A stretch of DNA of 49,912 bases from Candidatus Woesebacteria bacterium RBG_16_42_24 (GTDB lineage: Bacteria > Patescibacteriota > Microgenomatia > UBA8517): positions 188,694-238,605 of the forward strand of contig MGFX01000001.1 in assembly GCA_001792115.1 (NCBI GenBank). The letters run 5' to 3'. Below, one piece after another: positions 2,133-27,987 of the stretch. The notes below the pieces were generated by a model, which worked only from the letters and a program-made list of their open reading frames with translations, did no database searches and was not told the DNA's origin. Each line of letters starts with the position of its first letter. Within the stretch, counting starts at the first letter, position 1. Made by a program: the position numbers and the translations under genes.

Positions 2133-3716
2133 ATGCCCGACCAAAACCCAAGTTTCCCGACGGAAGAAGCTCCAGCGGCCCCATATGGAGAGATGAAACA
2201 ACCCAAGGAGATTGCACCACAGCCAGAGCCCCTTCAAGGCCCGTCCCAATCCCAACCTTGGACTGGAACAGCCACGCCTCCCAAGGAAGCTGGGGGGGTA
2301 AGCCCCGAGACTCCGAGTCCGGCGCCAGTAAGTCCCGCCGGACCCGTTAGTCAACCGCCGGTACCAGTAATTGCTGAAGGACCAACCGTTACTACAACGG
2401 GGCGAAGATTTCCAATAAAAATTATTCTCGGAATACTTCTCGCCTTAATACTTGCGGCCCTGGCTTACTTCGGGTTCAAGTTTTTGAGGAGCAGAACGGG
2501 GGCTCCATTAACTACCAACACGATTACCTGGTGGGGCCTTTGGGAAGACTCGGGAGTTGTCGCGCCCCTAATCGAGGAGTACCAAACCCAGAACCCTACT
2601 ATAAAAATCGAGTACGTAAGACAATCCCCCAAAGATTACCGTGAACGGCTTGAGAGTTCCCTTTCCGGGGGCGAAGGCCCTGACATTTTTTTCTTCCACA
2701 ACAGCTGGGTGCCCATGTTTAGGGATAAGCTCGACAAAATTCCTGCAGAAGTAATGGGTGCCGGGGAATTTGCCCAGACATTTTACCCGATTGTCTCTTC
2801 GGACGTCACTAGCGGAACCGGGTTAACTGGAATTCCCTTGGGGTATGACGCGCTAACTCTTTACATAAACCAGGATATGTTTGACGCTGCTGGTAAGACA
2901 GCACCAGAAACGTGGGACGATTTAAGGAAAGTAGCAAGCGAGTTGACGATTAAAGACGAAGACGGCCTAATTTCGCAATCGGGCGTTGCTTTGGGGTTAA
3001 CATCAAACATAGACCATTGGCCGGAGATTTTGGCTTTAATGATGCTTCAAAACGGCGCAAATCTGGCCGAGCCGACGGGTGAGTTGGCCGAGAAAGCTCT
3101 TGAGTTTTATACCTTTTTTTACAAGACAGATAAAGTTTGGGATGAAAACCTTCCCAACTCGACGGTCGCCTTTGCTGCAGGAAAAGTAGCCATGATTTTT
3201 GGTCCTAGCTGGCGAGCCTTTGAGATAAAAGAGCAGAACCCGGAGCTAAGATTTAAGACAGTTGCCCCGCCCCACCTTCCTAAAGAAGATACTAATGAAC
3301 CAGACGTCGCATATGCGACATATTGGATACAAGGGGTCTGGGAGGGGAGTTCTCAAAAAGAAGCGGCTTGGAGTTTTCTTAAATTCATGAGTCAAAAGAC
3401 AAGTTTGGAGAAGCTTTTCGCAAACGCCAGTAAAACCAGGCTTTTTGGTGAGCCATACCCGAGGGTGGATATGACCGAACTTCTTAATACGCACCCAATG
3501 CTTGGAGCAATAATTACCCAAGCCCCTAATGCGACCAGTTGGTATTTAGCTAGTCGAACTTTCGATGGACCGACGGGAATAAATTCACAAATAAATAAAT
3601 ATTTTGAGGATGCGGTGAATGCAGTTAATGAAGGAACGAGCGCCGAAGGTGCGCTTGCGACAACCGCGGAGGGAGTTGCCCAAATTCTTGCCCAATTCGG
3701 AATTTCTTCTCCATGA
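2133..3716 (+). CDS. Extracellular solute-binding protein family 1 (sugar-type) with Pro-rich N-terminus and TM anchor
   Basis: ITWWGLWE, GPDIFFFHNSW, GIPLGYDALTLYIN, TWDDL and FAAGKVAMIFGPSW motifs; start moved to ATG 2133. Confidence 0.88.
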   Translation: MPDQNPSFPTEEAPAAPYGEMKQPKEIAPQPEPLQGPSQSQPWTGTATPPKEAGGVSPETPSPAPVSPAGPVSQPPVPVIAEGPTVTTTGRRFPIKIILGILLALILAALAYFGFKFLRSRTGAPLTTNTITWWGLWEDSGVVAPLIEEYQTQNPTIKIEYVRQSPKDYRERLESSLSGGEGPDIFFFHNSWVPMFRDKLDKIPAEVMGAGEFAQTFYPIVSSDVTSGTGLTGIPLGYDALTLYINQDMFDAAGKTAPETWDDLRKVASELTIKDEDGLISQSGVALGLTSNIDHWPEILALMMLQNGANLAEPTGELAEKALEFYTFFYKTDKVWDENLPNSTVAFAAGKVAMIFGPSWRAFEIKEQNPELRFKTVAPPHLPKEDTNEPDVAYATYWIQGVWEGSSQKEAAWSFLKFMSQKTSLEKLFANASKTRLFGEPYPRVDMTELLNTHPMLGAIITQAPNATSWYLASRTFDGPTGINSQINKYFEDAVNAVNEGTSAEGALATTAEGVAQILAQFGISSP

Positions 3717-3954
3717 CATCCTCCCCGCCCTAAAGAGCGGGGGTATCCCTCCAAAGGAGGATGATATATCAGGTGAATAACCAACGCCCAGCGTTGTCAA
3801 TTCCTCCACGGATTGAAATCCGTGGTATCCTTGAAACTGTTATGACATTCTCCATGGACTAAGAGCCCACAGTTTCACTTTTGAAAGAGAATGACATATC
3901 AAGTTCAATTCCTCCGTGAGCTGAAAGCTCACGGTTTCCTTGAAATTGTTATGA
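3713..3954. mobile_element. Two tandem non-autonomous hairpin mini-elements (IS200/IS605-end or REP-like) bounded by ATGA
   Basis: ATGA at 3713, 3842 and 3951 bound units of 125 and 105 bp that share TCAATTCCTCC-stem-GGTWTCCTTGAAAYTGTT; the stems covary. Confidence 0.65.
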
Positions 3955-4808
3955 GGCAAGAGACTAAAAGAGATTTTACACTCTATTACCACGACATTTT
4001 TGAATACCCGCTAACGGACGAGGAGGTTACTGTCTGGCAGCCTGGCAAAAAACTTGGGGGAGAATTGAAAAAACGAGTTGAGACTGAGAAAAAGGGAGGG
4101 TATTCATTTTTAAAAGGTAAAGGGAGACTCGTGGAGGAGAGGCGGGAAAGAGAGAGCATCAGCAAAAGAAAAATTGAAATGGCAAAAAGGGGTGTTGGGT
4201 TTATCTCGACAATTCCCACGGTTAAGATGGTCGCCCTTACAGGGGCCCTGGCAATGAGTAATGCCAAGGTGGATTCCGATATAGACATTTTCATTATTTG
4301 TAAGGGGGGAACACTTTGGGCGACGAGGATGTTTACGATTTTTCTACTGGATATTTTTGGAATTCCCAGAAACGCTGGAGGCAAGGTCGATAAAGATAAA
4401 CTCTGCTTGAATATGTGGTTGGATGAGCGCGATTTAATCTGGGGCAGGACAGATAGAAATTTTTATACAGCTCACGAAATCGCCCAGATTATTCCTCTTG
4501 TAAACAAAAGAGGGACCTACGAGAGGTTTATCTTTGTTAATAGGTGGATTAAGGATTATTGGCCCAATGCAGTCAAGATACTAAGTGAAGAAGATACTAA
4601 GATACTTGTGGGGAAGAGCAAAAAAAATCACTTAATATCTAAGTATCTTAGTATCCTAGTATCTTTGCTATTCGAGCCGATTGCCTTTCGGTTGCAGTAT
4701 TTCTATATGAAGTCGAAGATCACCCGTGAGGTCGTAACTCCCACCCGGGCAATTTTTCATCCCCGAGACTGGGGAAAAATCGTGATGAAACGACTAACCC
4801 AGGTTTAG
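3951..4808 (+). CDS. Nucleotidyltransferase-fold (Pol beta-like) protein
   Basis: VALTGALA...SDIDIFII motif (G-x...D-x-D); the upstream 60 nt of the tracked ORF are repeat sequence, so the start is placed at 3951. Confidence 0.72.
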   Translation: MRQETKRDFTLYYHDIFEYPLTDEEVTVWQPGKKLGGELKKRVETEKKGGYSFLKGKGRLVEERRERESISKRKIEMAKRGVGFISTIPTVKMVALTGALAMSNAKVDSDIDIFIICKGGTLWATRMFTIFLLDIFGIPRNAGGKVDKDKLCLNMWLDERDLIWGRTDRNFYTAHEIAQIIPLVNKRGTYERFIFVNRWIKDYWPNAVKILSEEDTKILVGKSKKNHLISKYLSILVSLLFEPIAFRLQYFYMKSKITREVVTPTRAIFHPRDWGKIVMKRLTQV

Positions 4809-9229: not shown

Positions 9230-9304
9230 TGGAGGCCGGAGCGGGAATTGAACCCGCGCATAGGTGTTTTGCAGACACCCGTGTTTCCACTTCACCATCC
9301 GGCC
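9230..9304 (-). tRNA. trnC: tRNA-Cys (GCA), CCA encoded
   Basis: Acceptor GGCCGGA/TCCGGCC, anticodon arm GGTGT-CT GCA AA-ACACC, T-loop GGTTCAATTCC, ends TCCA. Confidence 0.97.
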
Positions 9305-9413
9305 GACTAGTGTATTTTACTTTATTTAATCCTAGTTACAAAATTTCCGGTTAAGTGTTTAATTTGCTTGGGGGCACTTTATCTGGTTACAATTACACAT
9401 CTAAAATTTTTCA

Positions 9414-10307
9414 ATGTCTATTGAGCTTGCAAAAACTTTTAAATTCCTGCGCCACGCCGCCGGTATGGAAGATGAAAGGTGGTTTTATAGTGAGGTTTAT
9501 TGGCCTGAAAGAGCGTTTTCCTCTGCCGTTTTCGTAGCCTACCCTTTAAGAAGATTTTATGGTTTGGGCCAACCTGAAATTATCGGAAGCGGCACAATTA
9601 GGGTTCTTAGTGCGTATTCCTCTTTAATTCAGGCATACGATAGATATTCGGATACCGCGACTATTTTACCTTCTCTTACAGAGATTAAGGAAAACCTTCT
9701 GCTCGATCAAATGGCGCAAGAAGTTATTAGGCAAGTGGATGGTACTGGACTAGACAGGGGGCAGAAGAGAGATTTAATCAGGATGGTAAATAGAAGTAGA
9801 TATACTTTATATCAAATAGAGCAGCAATATAGTGGGCGCCAGCTTTCTTCGTCGGAGGCCTTCGAGTGGAAGAAAGCTACTGGAGGAACACTTCTTTCTT
9901 CATGTGTCGCGATATTCAATAGGTGCCTATCTATTGGAGTTGAAGGAGCAAGTGTCGAGCAATCAGCTTTTTGGTACGGAGCAAATATTCAGCTATTAGA
10001 CGATACGGTAGATGTTGGTTCCGACATTTTAGCAGGAAGACAAACTCCGGTTATTTCGCTATTAAAAGAAAAAGGAGAGTATCGGGGAGTTGTCGATTAT
10101 ACTAGCAATGGTAGAAGATATTCTTTTGGGGCATTGCGTAATTTAGCTCCCCAGACAGTTTCATTGGTTGAACAAAAGAGACGGGAGTATCTAGATCAAG
10201 TTCCGCCTCTATTTACACTGGATGGATACCAGGAAATCTGTGACCCTTCCCTTACGCCTATTATTTTCAGGCTTTATTCGGCTGCGTCGAGGCGGGTTTC
10301 ACATTGA
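9414..10307 (+). CDS. Class I isoprenoid-synthase-fold (polyprenyl synthetase-like) protein
   Basis: First Asp-rich motif AYDRYSD, KKATG, second motif QLLDDTVD followed by D-ILAGRQT. Confidence 0.6.
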   Translation: MSIELAKTFKFLRHAAGMEDERWFYSEVYWPERAFSSAVFVAYPLRRFYGLGQPEIIGSGTIRVLSAYSSLIQAYDRYSDTATILPSLTEIKENLLLDQMAQEVIRQVDGTGLDRGQKRDLIRMVNRSRYTLYQIEQQYSGRQLSSSEAFEWKKATGGTLLSSCVAIFNRCLSIGVEGASVEQSAFWYGANIQLLDDTVDVGSDILAGRQTPVISLLKEKGEYRGVVDYTSNGRRYSFGALRNLAPQTVSLVEQKRREYLDQVPPLFTLDGYQEICDPSLTPIIFRLYSAASRRVSH

Positions 10308-10367
10308 TTAAAAGTTCGAGCTTCGGCTTGTCAAGCTAACGCCTTTTTGTTAAACTTTCCCACACTC

Positions 10368-11306
10368 ATGAGGAAGATAAGAACGATAATCTTAATCCTT
10401 TTAGGATTTGGAATTTTGACCGGCGCTGGATTGGCTCTATTGGGTTATCTTAGAAGCGGAAATGCGGGGCTTCTCGTTGAGTCAATACCTTCCTCTTCAG
10501 TTTATATCGCCGGCGAACAGGTAGGCCGTACTCCGTATGAGGCAAATCTCGATCCGGGTGAAGTAGTTGTGAAGTTGATCCCCGACGCAACCGATCGGGC
10601 ATTAGCCCCATTTGAGACAAAGGTAACATTGAGTTCTGGAATAAAAACCAATATCAGAAGGGAATTTGGGGAGACGGAAGAAACCTCTGTCGGCGAGATT
10701 GTTTCTTTTGAGAAAATTGGAGGTAAAGAGGTGAGCATTTCGGTAGTAACAACTCCAAATTCAGCCCAAATATCAGTCGATGGAACCGTCCGAGGTTTTG
10801 CCCCTTATAAAACCACCTCTATTACCCCAGGAGAGCATTCGTTGGTTATTTCTTCCCAGGGATATATCGATAGAACGATTACAGTTAAAGCGACAATTGG
10901 ATACAGATTAACGATTGTTGTTAAGCTTAAACCCAGTGAGGAGGCAGAGCCTCCTGAAGAAATAGAAGGGGAGGCGGTTGAAAAGAAGGTAATGGTTGAA
11001 ATATTATCCACTCCGACCGGGTTTCTGAGGGTTAGGGAAGCAGCCTCAACCGCGGCTAAAGAATTGACACAAGTAAAGCCGGGCCAGAGATTTCCATTTG
11101 TTGAAGAAGATACCGAGAATAACTGGTTTAAAATTGAATACCTGCCTGCGCAGGCAGGCGAAGAAGGAAAAGAAGGTTGGGTAACCGGCCAATATGCTAA
11201 AAAGGTTGAAGTTGAGCCGACAAAGGCGGCAAGTCCGTCAGCTACCCTCACCCCAACCAAAAAGCCTACGCCAACCCCGACACTAGTCCCTTCAGTTACT
11301 CCTTAG
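10368..11306 (+). CDS. Secreted/anchored PEGA-domain plus SH3b-domain protein with Thr-Pro tail
   Basis: N-terminal TM, two PEGA-like repeats (VYIAGEQVGRTPY; ISVDGTVRGFAPY), TGFLRVRE...WFKIEY...EGWV SH3b motif. Confidence 0.82.
   Translation: MRKIRTIILILLGFGILTGAGLALLGYLRSGNAGLLVESIPSSSVYIAGEQVGRTPYEANLDPGEVVVKLIPDATDRALAPFETKVTLSSGIKTNIRREFGETEETSVGEIVSFEKIGGKEVSISVVTTPNSAQISVDGTVRGFAPYKTTSITPGEHSLVISSQGYIDRTITVKATIGYRLTIVVKLKPSEEAEPPEEIEGEAVEKKVMVEILSTPTGFLRVREAASTAAKELTQVKPGQRFPFVEEDTENNWFKIEYLPAQAGEEGKEGWVTGQYAKKVEVEPTKAASPSATLTPTKKPTPTPTLVPSVTP
11141..11158. repeat. 18-bp perfect palindrome in frame inside the SH3b domain
   Basis: CCTGCCTGCGCAGGCAGG encodes LPAQAG. Confidence 0.85.
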
Positions 11307-25056: not shown

Positions 25057-27987
25057 GTGGTAAAGAAAAAAATTGAGGACAAGAAATTTAATAAAGAGCA
25101 AATTGAGGCAATTAAGTATGGAAATGGTCCACTTCTTATTATTGCAGGGGCGGGGACGGGCAAAACCACAGTTATCACCGAGAGAATTAAATACCTCATT
25201 CTTTCCAAGAAAACCAAACCCGAAGAAGTTCTCGCTTTAACCTTTACAGAAAAAGCAGCTAAAGAAATGGAGGAAAGAGTGGATGTGGCAATGCCTTATG
25301 GTTATACACAAATGTGGATAAGTACCTTCCACTCCTTTTGCGATCGGGTGCTAAGGCGGGAGGCGCTCCACATTGGCCTTGACCCCAAATATCACCTGGC
25401 GACCGAGGCAGAGACGGTTCAGTTTATTAGAAATAATCTTTTTAAATTTGATCTCGAATACTTTAGACCCTTAGGCAATCCCACGAAGTTTGTTGGAGGA
25501 ATGTTGCAACACTTTTCAAGGCTTCAGGACGAAGATGTGACACCCAATCAATATATTGATTGGGTGAACTTAAAACCCAAAACTCAAAACTCAAAAGTTT
25601 CGCAAGAAGAGAAGACAGAACTTAAAAAATGGAAAGAACTAGCCCGAGCATACAAGACCTACGACGAACTAAAAACAAAGGAGGGTGTGATGGATTTTGG
25701 GGACCTGATAGTTAAAGCCCTGAAACTTTTTAAAAGTAGGCCAAATATTTTGGGACAGTATCAGAAACAATTTAAGTATGTTTTGGTCGATGAATTCCAG
25801 GACACTAACTACGCGCAAAACGAATTGGCAATTTTACTTGCAGGGAAAGGTAACCTGCCTGCCGGCAGGCAAGGAAATATTACTGTCTGTGGGGACGATG
25901 ACCAGTCAATATATAGATTCCGTGGCGCCGCAGTTTCAAACATTATTCAATTTAGAAAGAATTTTCCAAAATCAAAGATTGTTGTTCTTACCAAGAATTA
26001 TCGATCCACACAAGAGATTTTGGATAGGGCATATCAGCTTATTCAACATAATAATCCGGATAGACTCGAGGCGGTCGAAAAAATAGACAAGAAGTTAGTA
26101 TCCCAAGTTGAAAAAGAGGGCAAAGAAATAAGTTTTATTCATGCGGATAGGGTAGAGAATGAAGCGGATGTGGTTGCCAAAGAAATTAAAAAACTCAAAG
26201 AAGATGGGGGCTACGAGTGGAAAGATTTCGCAATTTTGGTAAGGGCCAATAATCATGCGGAACCTTTCGGCAGAGCTCTCGCGCGGCACGCAGTTCCGTA
26301 CCAATTTCTTGGGCCAGGGAGACTTTTTAAGCAATCCGAAGTGGTCGACCTTATTTCTTATCTCAGGGTTCTTTATAACCTGGAAGATTCTGTTTCATTT
26401 TATAGGCTACTAGCAATTGATTATTTTGATATTAACGCACGCGATCTTGCGACAATCGGAAATAGCTCAAGAAAATTAAATAAAACTTTTTTCGAGGTAT
26501 GCGAGAATATCGACAATCTTTTTGTATCGAAAGAGACAAAAGAAAAAGTCAAAAAGATTTTAGAAATAATTGGAAGGCACTTAAAACTTGTTAGACGCGA
26601 AACAGCGGGGCAGCTCCTTTATTATTTTCTCTCCGACACGGGACTTATGCAAAAAATGCTTTCGCCCGACTCCGCCGAGGCGGAAAAAAAAGCGACAAAT
26701 ATTTCCAAATTTTTCGACAAACTGAAAACCTATGAGGTGGACCACGAGGACGCGACCGTTCCTGCGGTAGTTGATTGGCTGGAATTATCTTCCGAGCTAG
26801 GGGAGTCACCCTTGGCGGCAGATGTCGATTGGGTTAATGTAAATGCGGTTAACATTCTGACTGCTCACTCCGCAAAAGGCTTAGAATTTCCGGTCGTATT
26901 TTTAGTGAACTTGGTTGGCCAAAGATTTCCAACAATTGAAAGAAGGGAACAAATTCCAATCCCAGACGCACTCATAAAGGAGGTTCTGCCGGTCGGCGAT
27001 TACCATTTGGAGGAAGAAAGGCGGCTTTTTTATGTGGGGATGACGAGAGCTCGGGATATTCTTGTCTTTAGTGCGGCCGATTATTACGGGGAGGGTAAAA
27101 GAGAAAAAAGGCTGTCCCCTTTTATTTTTGAGTCGCTTGGAGATTCGGCTGTTTCAGCCGAACAAACACCCGAAAGCGGTCAACAGTTAAGCTTTCTGGA
27201 TTACCGACCGATTGCCGCCGAATTAACGAATCAACGAATTAACAAATCACGATTACATATCGACTACTTGTCCTACTCCCAAATCGAAACCTTTAGGATT
27301 TGTCCCTTACATTACAAATTAAAATATATTTACAAAATTCCCACTCCACCTTCTTCCTCACAAAGCTTTGGGAACAGTTTCCATGCGACAATGAAAGCTT
27401 TTTACGAGGCCTTAGTGAGAAAAGAAAAACCTTCGGAGAAACTAATGTATAGGGTTCTAAAGGAAAACTGGATAAGCGAGGGTTATCTAAATGCTAGACA
27501 CGAGGAGGGGTCGTTTGAAAAAGCCAAAAGATTTTTAAAATATTATTTGAAAAATACTTTTGACCCGAAAATTTCACCCATTTCTATGGAGCAGCCTTTT
27601 GTTGTTCGGCTCGACGGCCTTCGGGTCGGTGGAAAGATGGATAGGGTGGATGTGCATAAAGATGTGCTAGAGATAATCGACTACAAAACCGGTGCAAATC
27701 CGCTCCCCCAAAAAGAAGCAGATAAGGATTTGCAACTTTCCATTTACGCCCTTGCGGCAACCTCTATCCCGGAATTTCCTTTTGCCAGGGTTCCGGAAAA
27801 GGTGAAACTCTCGCTATATTATTTTGACACTCCGCAAATTGTTTCGACAACTAGGACGAAAGAGCAATTGAAAGAAGCAATAAAAATTATCGAGGATTAT
27901 AAAAGGCAAATTGAACACTCGGACTTTAGATGTTCACGCGGATTCCTTTGCGAAAACTGCGAATACTCATTTTTGTGTAGGACCTGA
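25057..27987 (+). CDS. UvrD/Rep-family helicase fused to a C-terminal PD-(D/E)XK nuclease with four Cys
   Basis: AGAGTGKT, DEFQD, GDDDQSIY, HSAKGLEF, EERRLFYVGMTRA; nuclease GKMDRVD...IIDYKTG, QLSIY; CPLHY...CSRGFLCENCEYSFLC. Confidence 0.92.
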   Translation: MVKKKIEDKKFNKEQIEAIKYGNGPLLIIAGAGTGKTTVITERIKYLILSKKTKPEEVLALTFTEKAAKEMEERVDVAMPYGYTQMWISTFHSFCDRVLRREALHIGLDPKYHLATEAETVQFIRNNLFKFDLEYFRPLGNPTKFVGGMLQHFSRLQDEDVTPNQYIDWVNLKPKTQNSKVSQEEKTELKKWKELARAYKTYDELKTKEGVMDFGDLIVKALKLFKSRPNILGQYQKQFKYVLVDEFQDTNYAQNELAILLAGKGNLPAGRQGNITVCGDDDQSIYRFRGAAVSNIIQFRKNFPKSKIVVLTKNYRSTQEILDRAYQLIQHNNPDRLEAVEKIDKKLVSQVEKEGKEISFIHADRVENEADVVAKEIKKLKEDGGYEWKDFAILVRANNHAEPFGRALARHAVPYQFLGPGRLFKQSEVVDLISYLRVLYNLEDSVSFYRLLAIDYFDINARDLATIGNSSRKLNKTFFEVCENIDNLFVSKETKEKVKKILEIIGRHLKLVRRETAGQLLYYFLSDTGLMQKMLSPDSAEAEKKATNISKFFDKLKTYEVDHEDATVPAVVDWLELSSELGESPLAADVDWVNVNAVNILTAHSAKGLEFPVVFLVNLVGQRFPTIERREQIPIPDALIKEVLPVGDYHLEEERRLFYVGMTRARDILVFSAADYYGEGKREKRLSPFIFESLGDSAVSAEQTPESGQQLSFLDYRPIAAELTNQRINKSRLHIDYLSYSQIETFRICPLHYKLKYIYKIPTPPSSSQSFGNSFHATMKAFYEALVRKEKPSEKLMYRVLKENWISEGYLNARHEEGSFEKAKRFLKYYLKNTFDPKISPISMEQPFVVRLDGLRVGGKMDRVDVHKDVLEIIDYKTGANPLPQKEADKDLQLSIYALAATSIPEFPFARVPEKVKLSLYYFDTPQIVSTTRTKEQLKEAIKIIEDYKRQIEHSDFRCSRGFLCENCEYSFLCRT
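25854..25874. repeat. 21-bp palindromic element in frame in the helicase
   Basis: CCTGCCTGCCGGCAGGCAAGG encodes N-LPAGRQ-G. Confidence 0.85.

What the first reader, a model, noticed from the sequence alone, without database searches (positions are those of the whole stretch)
11141..11158. 18-bp perfect palindrome inserted in frame in an SH3b domain
CCTGCCTGCGCAGGCAGG adds LPAQAG. Deleting exactly these 18 nt gives WFKIEYEEGKEGWV, a clean SH3b-like motif. The insertion is after codon position 2, like the other two coding copies.
Basis: partly seen in the sequence, partly recalled or inferred. Interest (0 to 1): 0.7.

Follow-up and report, generated by a model that had tools for sequence, protein, structure and literature searches.

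The report
Tiny palindromic mobile-element remnant in a gene
The 18-base palindrome is a real in-frame insertion in a loop of a bacterial SH3 domain. It belongs to a widespread family of identical mini-palindromes that match the two fused ends of a small, apparently undescribed nuclease-encoding mobile cassette that inserts into genes without breaking their reading frame.

Summary
Confirmed. CCTGCCTGCGCAGGCAGG (11141-11158) lies in a PEGA+SH3_3 gene of a Woesebacteria-like (CPR/Patescibacteria) genome and adds LPAQAG at the tip of the SH3 distal beta-hairpin.

- **Insertion:** 91 of 120 orthologues have no insert at this site or at a second site five codons downstream. Removing the 18 nt restores the consensus WFKIEYEEGKEGWV.
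- **DNA-level identity:** orthologues only 51-74% identical carry the same codons (CTG CCT GCG CAG GCA GG), while flanking codons vary synonymously. Other lineages hold decayed copies.
- **Dispersed family:** Of those loci, 71 are CPR-labelled. It has no stop codon in any frame, no target duplication, and a purine^pyrimidine insertion point. It is read as LPAQAG in 56 of 78 coding copies.
- **New lead:** the two 9-nt halves are the outer ends of a 282-291-nt in-frame cassette. This cassette encodes a UPF0213/SLX1-like GIY-YIG nuclease bounded by LPAPRPG...RQAG. It sits inside many unrelated host proteins; 63 of the 100 long carriers scanned are HsdS. Shortened forms of 23, 13, 12 and 11 aa lie between it and the 6-aa form.

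I read the palindrome as the cargo-less remnant or miniature of that cassette, probably neutral here. The way it spreads is inferred, not shown.

The parts
11141..11158 (.). PAL1: perfect 18-bp palindrome CCTGCCTGC|GCAGGCAGG. It is an in-frame insertion read as LPAQAG (codons 11142-11159) and equals the outer 9 nt of each end of the GIY-YIG cassette.
   Evidence: sequence, uniqueness. (empty and filled orthologous sites). (dispersed family). (cassette termini). RNA hairpin energy -11 kcal/mol.
10347..11306 (+). Host gene: membrane-anchored PEGA + SH3_3 (bacterial SH3) protein, 319 aa.
   Evidence: ORF. (PEGA E 2e-14; SH3_3 E 2e-9, 38 bits against a cut-off of 27). (663 homologues, Woesebacteria/Patescibacteria names). 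(AlphaFold model, mean pLDDT 87).
11022..11195 (+). SH3_3 domain (residues 226-283). The insert (residues 266-271) sits at the tip of the hairpin between strands 260-266 and 275-280 (distal loop).
   Evidence: domain limits. (secondary structure of the model; pLDDT 86-90 in these blocks).
11159..11176 (+). Purine-rich turn-coding stretch (C)GAAGAAGGAAAAGAAGG (EEGKEG). Family members have inserted at both of its borders in different lineages: site 1 = TA^Y, site 2 = GG^Y.
   Evidence: No general link to purine tracts was found.
25854..25874 (.). Related 21-nt quasi-palindrome CCTGCCTGCCGGCAGGCAAGG. It equals the 20-mer family member CCTGCCTGCC|GGCAGGCAGG (left 9 + right 11 nt of the cassette ends) plus one A. 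It adds 7 aa to the helicase (GK[GNLPAGRQG]NITV where relatives read GK[AK]NITV).
   Evidence: (7-residue gap against solved UvrD/PcrA). (unique to the window's protein among 84 parsed orthologues). (the 20-mer is dispersed: 35 viral loci).
25057..27987 (+). Host of the second copy: UvrD/PcrA-type helicase fused to a PD-(D/E)XK nuclease (AddA-like), 976 aa.
42472..42487 (.). PAL2: a different 16-bp perfect palindrome, TCCGCCAG|CTGGCGGA, read on the minus strand as PPAGG in the 116-aa ORF 42415..42765. It recurs 6-8 times in the loci fetched for PAL1, often near PAL1. Its insertion status here was not tested.
   Evidence: No PAL2-bounded cassette was found locally.

Best explanation
The palindrome is a DNA-level insertion of an ultra-short dispersed element, PAL1.

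**What PAL1 is.** It consists of the outer 9 nt of the left end plus the outer 9 nt of the right end of a ~285-nt mobile cassette. That cassette carries ~17-20-bp G+C-rich terminal inverted repeats (CCTGCCTGCGCCGCG... / ...CGCGGCAGGCAGG). It encodes only a UPF0213/SLX1-like GIY-YIG nuclease domain. It has no start or stop codon of its own. Its length is a multiple of three, so it inserts into host genes in frame and is translated as an internal domain flanked by LPAPRPG... and ...RQAG.

PAL1 (LPA|QAG) is the shortest member of a series of shortened forms. It is either an excision or deletion remnant, or a miniature copy still moved in trans.

**Properties.** It has no stop codon in any of the six frames and is 18 nt long. 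It enters at purine^pyrimidine steps without duplicating the target. It survives in coding DNA mainly where it reads LPAQAG in a surface loop.

**In this gene.** It entered codon TA^Y of the SH3b distal hairpin and lengthens the loop by six residues. It is most likely neutral.

**Shown:**
- insertion relative to orthologues;
- nucleotide identity across diverged lineages, with decay in others;
- a dispersed family with subfamilies and nesting;
- identity of the PAL1 halves with the cassette termini;
- the intermediate shortened forms;
- the variety of host proteins.

**Inferred:**
- that the nuclease, acting on the hairpin or cruciform formed by the ends, drives insertion and excision;
- the direction of derivation (cassette to palindrome);
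- neutrality in this gene.
For: **Insertion and DNA-level identity**
-.
- Loop position.

**Dispersed family**
- More than 120 loci hold the exact 18-mer, against roughly 9 expected by my own estimate from a uniform base composition (596e9 bases / 4^18); 71 of 120 are labelled as CPR lineages.
- 25 viral loci.
- Frame bias LPAQAG 56: PACAGR 14: CLRRQ 8.
- Purine at -1 in 80% and pyrimidine at +1 in 77% of copies, also in non-coding copies and already present in empty sites. No target duplication.
- Subfamily CTTGCCTGCGCAAGCAGG at 5 or more places.
- A nested copy in L003.
- An 18-nt presence/absence difference between two copies of one repeat in a single MAG.

**Cassette link**
- L073 has CCTGCCTGC...[GIY-YIG, in frame in an HsdR-like ORF]...GCAGGCAGG. 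The same gene also holds an intact PAL1 and a 39-nt ends-only unit.
- Four further cassettes read at DNA level are 282-285 nt, and all begin CCTGCCTGCGCCGCG and end GGCAGGCAGG.
- 30 of 36 N-boundaries read LPA and 45 of 50 C-boundaries read QAG.
- An exhaustive phmmer search found 324 representative clusters at E<=1e-10. Of 91 internal domains, 63 have both LPA.. and ..QAG. The modal length is 94 aa. D precedes LPA in 36 of 63, and D is also the commonest residue before PAL1 copies.
- Of the 100 longer carriers I picked from the best 150, 63 are HsdS. The rest include MGMT, HsdR, HsdM, trigger factor, RNR, ArgRS, TrmD, QueC and pseudouridine synthase.
- Intermediate forms of 23, 13, 12 and 11 aa.
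- The nuclease is nearest to UPF0213 (1YWL, E 2e-10), with a weak match to SLX1.
Against: - No full cassette was found at the SH3 site in 120 orthologues, nor in 120 helicase orthologues.
- No GIY-YIG gene is present anywhere in the 50-kb window.
- Viral contigs hold many solo palindromes (25 and 35 loci) but none of the cassettes searched for. Palindromes therefore occur far from any cis-encoded nuclease.
- The data equally allow the reverse order: PAL1 as an older independent element whose centre is the cassette's landing site. Centre-nested insertions are seen in L003 and L151.
- The query included the flanks, and that search is word-based, which biases it toward LPAPR/RQAG. One search has no word index, but its query also carried the flanks.
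- Independent deletions should give varied junctions, yet the exact 18-mer and 20-mer dominate.
- No biochemical or population evidence for mobility: Logan contigs show only the filled site, and no RNA runs were available.
- The repeated use of exactly two sites in this gene is unexplained.
Confidence: 0.6

Rival explanations
1. PAL1 is an autonomous-in-kind tiny dispersed repeat, comparable to cyanobacterial small dispersed repeats or REP-type hairpins. It is moved by some host or foreign enzyme unrelated to the GIY-YIG cassette. The cassette, and other palindromes, merely insert into the centre of pre-existing PAL1 copies and so acquire PAL1 halves as apparent ends.
For: - Centre-nested insertions of other short palindromes are seen: L003, with one copy inside another, and L151, with an unrelated palindrome between the halves.
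- Solo palindromes are abundant where no cassette is found.
- Two further palindrome families (PAL2 and the 20-mer) co-occur with PAL1, and no cassette is known for PAL2.
- The exact 18-mer junction is uniform.
Against: - The inner parts of the cassette inverted repeats (GCCGCG... / ...CGCGGC) continue the symmetry beyond the 9-nt halves.
- Shortened forms retain graded amounts of these inner repeats: 39, 36, 33 and 69 nt.
- 63 of 91 internal cassettes have both halves. Under this rival, nearly every cassette insertion would have had to hit a PAL1 centre.
- PAL1 and the cassette share the same preferred upstream codon, GA^C.
Confidence: 0.25
2. The palindrome is a functional nucleic-acid signal kept by selection. 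Candidates are a binding site for a dimeric DNA-binding protein, a DNA-uptake or chromosome-organisation signal, or an RNA hairpin that regulates translation or decay. Its position in the SH3 gene would then be incidental.
For: - The exact sequence is maintained across very distant CPR classes.
- It forms a stable hairpin (-11 kcal/mol).
- A subset of copies sits at the tip of longer inverted repeats (6 of 125 against 0.8 expected).
- CPR phyla have the highest perfect inverted-repeat density reported (PMC13155455).
Against: - Orthologous copies decay freely: LPAEEG, MPSVAG, QSKEAG and others, and at DNA level CTT CCG GCC GAA GAA GGA.
- Density is low, about 1-3 per 50 kb.
- New copies arise as whole 18-nt insertions, not by point mutation.
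- Frame bias and loop location indicate tolerance, not function.
- No Rfam family matches.
Confidence: 0.08
3. LPAQAG is a selected peptide motif (for example a recognition or flexible-linker motif) that arose repeatedly or is conserved at protein level. On this view the palindrome is a by-product of codon choice.
For: - The subfamily CTTGCCTGCGCAAGCAGG differs from PAL1 by two changes, both synonymous in the LPAQAG frame.
- There is a strong bias to the LPAQAG frame.
Against: - Diverged lineages use identical codons, with p about 3e-4 per lineage.
- The same DNA occurs in the other frames (PACAGR, CLRRQ) and in non-coding DNA.
- The helicase copy reads LPAGRQ.
- The motif is absent from 91 of 120 orthologues.
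Confidence: 0.02
4. The palindrome is a chance occurrence or a sequencing/assembly artefact.
For: None beyond the general risk that palindromes can arise in amplified libraries.
Against: - Shuffles expect 0.01 matches.
- The same site is filled in independent assemblies from Logan, ENA, JGI and NCBI.
- Decayed versions exist.
Confidence: 0.01

Closest known systems
Rickettsia palindromic elements (RPE; Ogata et al. 2000, own knowledge; mentioned in PMC1166351, PMC1458961 listed)
   Same: Palindromic selfish repeats inserted in frame in protein-coding genes. They are translated as extra peptide segments at surface positions, and also occur in RNA genes and intergenic DNA.
   Different: RPEs are about 100-150 bp, restricted to Rickettsia, and have no known encoded enzyme. 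PAL1 is 18 bp, spread over many CPR classes plus some other phyla and phage contigs, and matches the ends of a nuclease cassette.
MITEs and other non-autonomous deletion derivatives of inverted-repeat transposons; P-element-type excision footprints that retain parts of both inverted repeats (own knowledge)
   Same: It shares termini with a longer coding element, shows a graded series of shortened forms, and has many copies in genomes that lack the coding element.
   Different: No target-site duplication. At 18 bp it is far smaller than any MITE I know of. The presumed parent encodes a GIY-YIG nuclease domain rather than a DDE, HUH or serine/tyrosine enzyme, and it is translated as part of the host protein.
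GIY-YIG homing endonuclease genes (free-standing, intron-borne or intein-associated; for example I-TevI and phage Seg proteins; own knowledge)
   Same: A small GIY-YIG nuclease gene behaving as selfish DNA. It recurs at particular sites (HsdS LVPQDPND|EPAS) and is kept harmless to the host gene.
   Different: No intron or intein, so harmlessness comes from in-frame read-through. The nuclease belongs to the UPF0213/SLX1 branch, not the I-TevI branch. It has inverted-repeat ends and many unrelated host genes, which looks more like transposition than homing.
REP / REPIN elements moved by RAYT (PMC3116915)
   Same: Short G+C-rich hairpin-forming repeats dispersed in bacterial genomes.
   Different: REPs are extragenic, imperfect, carry a conserved 5' tetranucleotide, and work as inverted doublets. 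PAL1 is perfect, single, mostly inside ORFs, and has only a purine/pyrimidine flank preference.
Small dispersed repeats of heterocystous cyanobacteria (Elhai et al. 2008, Genome Res; own knowledge, paper not in the held library)
   Same: They are 21-27-nt mobile repeats found inside genes and RNA genes, nest within one another, and have no known enzyme.
   Different: Different sequences and taxa. For PAL1 a candidate parent element and enzyme can be named.
Coding palindromes and G+C clusters in mitochondrial genes (Nematomorpha, PMC6649704; yeast GC clusters, own knowledge)
   Same: Hairpin-forming inverted repeats tolerated inside protein-coding sequence of A+T-rich genomes.
   Different: These are organellar, much longer or of variable sequence, and are not a fixed 18-mer shared across phyla.

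Membership tests
Bacterial SH3 domain (Pfam SH3_3) - host domain | Match to PF08239 above the gathering score | tested here: met
   38 bits against a cut-off of 27, E 2e-9, residues 226-283. The beta-strand pattern in the model agrees.
MITE-like non-autonomous derivative of an inverted-repeat element | Termini identical to those of a longer, coding element | tested here: met
   Five of five cassettes read at DNA level begin CCTGCCTGC and end GCAGGCAGG.
MITE-like non-autonomous derivative of an inverted-repeat element | Intermediate internal-deletion forms exist | tested here: met
   Units of 69, 39, 36 and 33 nt that keep both ends. The 20-mer equals left 9 + right 11 nt.
MITE-like non-autonomous derivative of an inverted-repeat element | Target-site duplication flanking each copy | tested here: not met
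   No direct repeat beyond chance in 125 copies. Empty and filled sites differ by exactly 18 nt.
MITE-like non-autonomous derivative of an inverted-repeat element | Mobilised in trans by the parent's enzyme | not testable with these tools
   Needs a genome-wide co-occurrence census or an experiment. The window has no GIY-YIG gene.
Homing endonuclease gene (GIY-YIG) | Encodes a GIY-YIG nuclease domain | tested here: met
   This holds for the cassette, not for the 18-mer. PF01541 matched in 100 of 100 carriers. The nearest solved structures are UPF0213 proteins.
Homing endonuclease gene (GIY-YIG) | Carried in a self-splicing intron or intein, or free-standing with its own start and stop | tested here: not met
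   The cassette is read through in frame with the host ORF and has no Hint/intein domain. RNA-level removal could not be tested.
Homing endonuclease gene (GIY-YIG) | One cognate homing site | tested here: inconclusive
   There is a strong recurrent site in HsdS (63 of 100 carriers), but also about 25 other host families.
Rickettsia palindromic elements | About 100-150-bp palindromic unit | tested here: not met
   The unit is 18 bp with no conserved flanks.
Rickettsia palindromic elements | In-frame insertion in ORFs, absent from orthologues | tested here: met
REP/REPIN-RAYT | Extragenic location | tested here: not met
   78 of 125 copies lie in stop-free spans of 150 codons or more.
REP/REPIN-RAYT | Conserved 5' tetranucleotide and inverted doublet organisation | tested here: not met
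   The flank profile shows only purine at -1 and pyrimidine at +1. Copies are single.
REP/REPIN-RAYT | RAYT (Y1 transposase) gene in the genome | not tested
   Only 50 kb of the genome is available. Not all window ORFs were scanned against Pfam, and none of those scanned matched a transposase family.
Intrinsic transcription terminator | G+C-rich hairpin followed by a T run, downstream of a gene | tested here: not met
   It lies inside the ORF and is followed by CGAAGAAGG.

The most novel reading that the evidence does not exclude
A large, undescribed class of 'read-through' mobile elements exists. These are ~285-nt cassettes that encode only an SLX1/UPF0213-type GIY-YIG nuclease between G+C-rich inverted repeats. 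They insert in frame into host genes, above all type I restriction specificity genes but also housekeeping genes, and are expressed as an internal domain of the host protein. The 18- and 20-bp perfect palindromes that pepper CPR genomes and their phages are the footprints or ultra-miniature derivatives of these cassettes, generated or moved by a structure-specific cut at the hairpin formed by the ends. This would also explain why CPR phyla top the ranking of perfect inverted-repeat density.
Probability: 0.45. Interest if true: 0.85.

Novelty: new variant of a known kind. Interest (0 to 1): 0.75.

Why it matters
If the link holds, several things follow.

- It names a source for the short perfect palindromes that are unusually dense in CPR genomes.
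- It adds a third way for a nuclease gene to live inside a host gene without killing it: in-frame read-through, beside introns and inteins.
- It shows that an element can shrink to 18 bp and still be recognisable across phyla.

Practical consequences:
- These 6-7-residue (LPAQAG-type) and ~94-residue inserts will confuse domain boundaries, alignments and phylogenies of CPR proteins. They should be masked.
- The frequent insertion in hsdS genes could alter restriction specificity.
- The cassette nuclease is a candidate hairpin/cruciform-specific enzyme.

Tried and rejected
- **Same short sequence added to both ends of a break.** Each half is (CCTG)2C, which suggested this origin. I dropped it because a non-palindromic subfamily recurs with a fixed sequence and because the halves continue into cassette inverted repeats.
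- **Targeting of purine tracts,** suggested by the EEGKE turn. There is no significant association over 125 copies (p 0.36-0.58), only a two-fold excess of runs of 10 nt or more.
- **Target-site duplication.** None.
- **Larger conserved element around PAL1.** None in general. Six of 125 copies sit at the tip of longer inverted repeats. In one Sphingobacteriales MAG, PAL1 is part of mosaics of other short repeats.
- **tRNA insertion.** The tRNA-Gln-like flanks of five copies are duplicated 5' fragments or a second degenerate tRNA-Gln, not the functional gene.
- **Rfam.** Nothing at the palindromes or in nine related loci.
- **Population polymorphism.** Only Logan contigs were available, and all show the filled site. 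No RNA runs.
- **GIY-YIG gene in the window.** None. The 297-aa ORF upstream of the host gene has no family match.
- **Cassette bounded by PAL2 halves.** None in 1.3 Mb of local DNA.
- **Full cassette in viral contigs.** None. The first scan used a wrong spacing and was repeated correctly.
- **Full cassette in SH3 or helicase orthologues.** None.
- **Literature.** The 18-mer, LPAQAG, and several keyword sets returned nothing relevant.
- **Metagenome scan.** It was run with the single protein instead of an alignment and returned only 16 loci.
Full report
**Observation.** CCTGCCTGCGCAGGCAGG occupies 11141-11158. It is a perfect 18-bp palindrome and the only match in the window even at three mismatches; shuffles expect 0.01. 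It is 78% G+C in a 44% G+C region. It lies in ORF 10347..11306 (+), a 319-aa protein with an N-terminal membrane helix, PEGA domains and a C-terminal SH3_3 domain. The reading is TA|C CTG CCT GCG CAG GCA GG|C, giving Y-LPAQAG-E. As RNA it would form a 7-bp stem with a GCGC loop, -11 kcal/mol.

**Position in the protein.** The SH3_3 match covers 58 residues against 51 profile positions. An AlphaFold model built on 49 orthologues has a mean pLDDT of 87. It places residues 266-271 at the tip of the hairpin between strands 260-266 (WFKIEYL) and 275-280. That is the distal loop, a place where extra residues are easily tolerated.

**Orthologues, protein level.** The best 120 of 663 homologues carry Woesebacteria or Patescibacteria names and are 48-78% identical. 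They align without ambiguity around the site.
- 91 have no insert and read ...KIEY-E(E/K/D)GKE-GW....
- 24 have an insert at the same point. Seven read exactly LPAQAG, one is nested (LPA-LPAQAG-QTG), and the rest form a graded series of decay (QPAQAG, PPAQAG, LPAEEG, MPSVAG, QSKEAG, SSAGTN and others).
- Six have GLPAQAG-like inserts at a second point five codons downstream (KE|GW). One protein has both.

Removing the window's 18 nt gives the exact sequence of P0003. On a neighbour-joining tree with the insert columns masked, the window's own clade mostly carries the insert, with P0002 and P0003/P0010 lacking it. At least seven other scattered lineages have an intact or nearly intact copy while their sisters have none. 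LPAQAG occurs nowhere else in these 120 proteins. It occurs nowhere in 120 helicase orthologues three times as long. The two borders of this turn are therefore a real hot spot, which I cannot explain. The turn is encoded by a purine run, but purine runs are not generally associated with copies.

**Orthologues, DNA level.** Carriers at 51-74% protein identity (window, L001, L125, L140, L141) all use CTG CCT GCG CAG GCA GG(C/T). L142 has one synonymous change and L132 one non-synonymous change. L124, a close relative, is decayed to CTT CCG GCC GAA GAA GGA. Flanking codons differ synonymously throughout. With the window's codon usage, the chance of those five codons given LPAQA is 3e-4. The identity is therefore at DNA level and the copies are young or repeatedly renewed. 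Empty sites read TA(C/T) GA. and GG(C/T) TGG, so exactly 18 nt are gained at a purine^pyrimidine step with no duplication.

**A dispersed family.** A scan of one genome per species (596 Gb) for the exact 18-mer stopped at its 120-locus limit. By my own estimate, a uniform base composition predicts about nine matches (596e9 bases / 4^18).
- By their titles, 71 of the 120 loci are CPR lineages of many classes (WWE3, Microgenomates, Paceibacterota/Parcubacteria, Saccharibacteria, Dojkabacteria). The rest are Bacteroidota, Terriglobia, unnamed MAGs and others.
- Flanks of 125 copies share nothing except purine at -1 (80%) and pyrimidine at +1 (77%). No target duplication is present. The same preference holds for non-coding copies.
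- 78 copies lie in stop-free spans of 150 codons or more. Of these, 56 read LPAQAG, 14 PACAGR and 8 CLRRQ. The element has no stop in any frame.
- Twenty-five viral contigs carry it.
- A published survey found CPR phyla to have the highest density of perfect inverted repeats of all phyla (PMC13155455).

**Other members in the window.**
- At 25854-25874 the helicase-nuclease gene carries CCTGCCTGCCGGCAGGCAAGG. Solved UvrD/PcrA structures and 84 parsed orthologues show a 7-residue insert unique to this lineage. Relatives read LAGK(A/T/S)KNITV. The window reads LAGKGNLPAGRQGNITV, and removing the 21 nt restores LAGKGKNITV.
- The perfect 20-mer CCTGCCTGCCGGCAGGCAGG is itself dispersed, in 35 viral loci. 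The window's copy has one extra A that restores the frame.
- At 42472-42487 a different palindrome, TCCGCCAGCTGGCGGA, lies in a small ORF. It recurs 6-8 times in the loci fetched for PAL1, sometimes 40-70 nt from PAL1.

**Signs of copy-like behaviour.**
- A non-palindromic variant, CTTGCCTGCGCAAGCAGG, recurs unchanged at site 2 of two orthologues, as the inner copy of the nested L003 insert, and in viral contigs.
- One copy sits exactly in the centre of another in L003.
- Two copies of a ~330-nt repeat in one Bacteroidota MAG differ by a precise 18-nt unit, CCTGCTTGATCAGGCAAG.

**The cassette.** I looked for the two 9-nt halves apart from each other. In L073, a WOR-3 MAG, this found CCTGCCTGC-cgcgccgcggac...about 260 nt...gtccggggcgcggc-GCAGGCAGG. 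The interior encodes a complete GIY-YIG domain in frame with a 1170-aa HsdR-like ORF. The same gene also holds an intact PAL1 and a 39-nt unit made of the two ends only (LPAPQSEAARQAG).
- A protein search with this segment returned 54 relatives bounded by ...D-LPAPRPG... and ...RQAG-G.... They sit inside MGMT, HsdR, HsdS, HsdM, MsrB and others. In MGMT the Ogt profile is interrupted right after PCHRVIRAD.
- Four carriers read at DNA level have cassettes of 282-285 nt. Each begins GA|C CTG CCT GCG CCG CG and ends CGG CAG GCA GG|N. These are imperfect 17-20-bp inverted repeats whose outer 9 nt are the PAL1 halves. Left 9 + right 11 nt gives the 20-mer.
- An exhaustive phmmer search of 1.84 billion representatives found 324 clusters at E<=1e-10. 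The domain is almost always internal, in proteins of 100-1100 aa.
- Of 91 internal cases, 63 have both LPA.. and ..QAG and 21 have one of them. The modal length is 94 aa. D precedes LPA in 36 of 63. D is also the commonest residue before PAL1 copies.
- I scanned 100 of the longer carriers picked from the best 150. Of these, 63 are type I specificity subunits with a recurrent site LVPQDPND|...|EPASVLLE. The rest include trigger factor, ribonucleotide reductase, ArgRS, TrmD, QueC, pseudouridine synthase and several methyltransferases.
- Shortened forms of 23, 13, 12 and 11 aa that keep both ends occur in the same protein set.
- The domain is nearest to UPF0213 proteins (1YWL, 1ZG2) and weakly resembles SLX1, a structure-specific endonuclease.

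**Other small GIY-YIG genes nearby.** Small free-standing GIY-YIG genes of another branch sit next to tRNA genes in CPR loci. In three of them PAL1 lies within about 20-130 nt, splitting a duplicated tRNA-Gln fragment. In two Woesebacteria relatives a GIY-YIG + tRNA-Cys unit lies just upstream of the PEGA-SH3 gene. The window has the tRNA-Cys (9230-9304) but no GIY-YIG gene.

**Inference.**
- What is shown: the 18 nt are an insertion, part of a dispersed DNA family, and identical to the fused tips of a widespread in-frame GIY-YIG cassette for which intermediate shortened forms exist.
- What is inferred: that the palindrome derives from the cassette as a footprint or miniature, that the nuclease acts on the hairpin or cruciform formed by the ends, and that the copy in this SH3 loop is neutral.
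- The main alternative is that PAL1 is older and independent and the cassette lands in its centre. Centre-nested insertions make this possible. The graded retention of inner repeat sequence in the short forms argues against it.
- No cassette was found at the SH3 site, in the window, or in viral contigs. The enzyme, if needed, acts in trans or acted in the past.

**Comparison and novelty.** The behaviour resembles Rickettsia palindromic elements (in-frame palindromic inserts), MITEs (shortened derivatives sharing ends), cyanobacterial small dispersed repeats (tiny, nested), and homing endonuclease genes (selfish nuclease kept harmless to its host gene). It fails defining features of each, namely size, target duplication, extragenic location, and an intron or intein. 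Nine full-text searches found no description of the 18-mer, of LPAQAG, or of in-frame GIY-YIG cassettes. The held library is incomplete, so prior description cannot be excluded.

**Limits.**
- The taxonomic tally rests on record titles.
- The tree is a simple neighbour-joining tree.
- The cassette searches used queries that included the flanking peptides.
- The 100 hosts scanned were chosen by me from the best 150, so the HsdS share describes that selection rather than all carriers.
- No reads, transcripts or experiments bear on mobility or translation.

Noticed in passing
L030 1725-2105; L113 389-745; L041 6792-7200; L040 ~3530-4013; L045 362-487: In five Parcubacteria-type loci PAL1 splits a duplicated 5' fragment of tRNA-Gln (..GCCGG(G/A)TCG^TCTAATGGTAGGA..) next to the intact tRNA-Gln. 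In three of them a small free-standing GIY-YIG gene (a pseudogene in L113) lies between or beside them. This looks like a tRNA-targeting GIY-YIG unit with PAL1 at its edge.
   Followed up: partly
L141 9440-9990; L003 100-450; window 9230-10347: In two Woesebacteria relatives a GIY-YIG gene plus tRNA-Cys sits just upstream of the PEGA-SH3 gene. In L141 it is flanked by ~37-nt direct repeats (gtctgtctggcaaagccagatc..). The window keeps the tRNA-Cys (9230-9304, -) but has an unassigned 297-aa ORF (9414-10307) in place of the nuclease gene.
   Followed up: partly
L108 4850-5180 and L115 5370-5700 (two contigs of one Bacteroidota MAG): A ~330-nt repeat is shared at about 95% identity in otherwise unrelated contexts. 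It contains PAL1 and PAL2, and one copy has an extra 18-nt family member. No Rfam match. It could be an unknown RNA gene or a composite repeat.
   Followed up: partly
window 25541-25566: A 26-bp perfect palindrome, CACCCAATCAATATATTGATTGGGTG, lies inside the helicase ORF about 290 nt upstream of the 21-nt insert. It is the longest perfect palindrome in the window, is A+T-rich in the centre, and is unrelated in sequence to PAL1.
   Followed up: no
P0123, P0138, P0139, P0143, P0205, P0233 (helicase orthologues, ~1330 aa): Several orthologues of the window's helicase-nuclease carry an intein (PF14890, some with PF01079). The window's copy does not. This gene family is invaded by both inteins and palindromes.
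   Followed up: no
P0311, P0313, P0324, P0328, P0333 and about 60 other representatives: The GIY-YIG cassette recurs at one conserved point of type I restriction specificity subunits (LVPQDPND|cassette|EPASVLLE). Whether such HsdS proteins still work, or whether this changes restriction specificity, is open.
   Followed up: partly
L003 1412; L143 1035; L144 6230; L153 2175 and 2612; L209; L210: The subfamily CTTGCCTGCGCAAGCAGG is not a true palindrome. Its tetramers are ordered A-B|a-b instead of A-B|b-a, and it folds as a 5-bp stem with a GCAA loop. It recurs unchanged, and both differences from PAL1 are synonymous in the LPAQAG frame.
   Followed up: partly
L015, L036, L074, L080, L086, L105 (one Sphingobacteriales MAG): Seven of the 120 genome loci come from a single Bacteroidota MAG. 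There PAL1 is embedded in mosaics of other short repeats (..GCGTTAACGATGGTAGCGG.., ..AAACCCGACAG..TAGCGGATACC..), which suggests local amplification of composite units.
   Followed up: no
P0241, P0242, P0246: In three cassette carriers the ends are read in another frame (..ACL(L/P)RR.. and ..RRRQVE..) while the GIY-YIG domain stays in frame. The cassette can therefore sit in a different phase relative to its own ends.
   Followed up: no
window 3806-3825 and 3914-3934: Two G+C-rich hairpins with GAAA-type loops (CCACGGATTGAAATCCGTGG, CCGTGAGCTGAAAGCTCACGG) lie about 110 nt apart. The first is between the solute-binding-protein gene and the next ORF; the second is just inside that ORF as listed (start 3891).
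   Followed up: no
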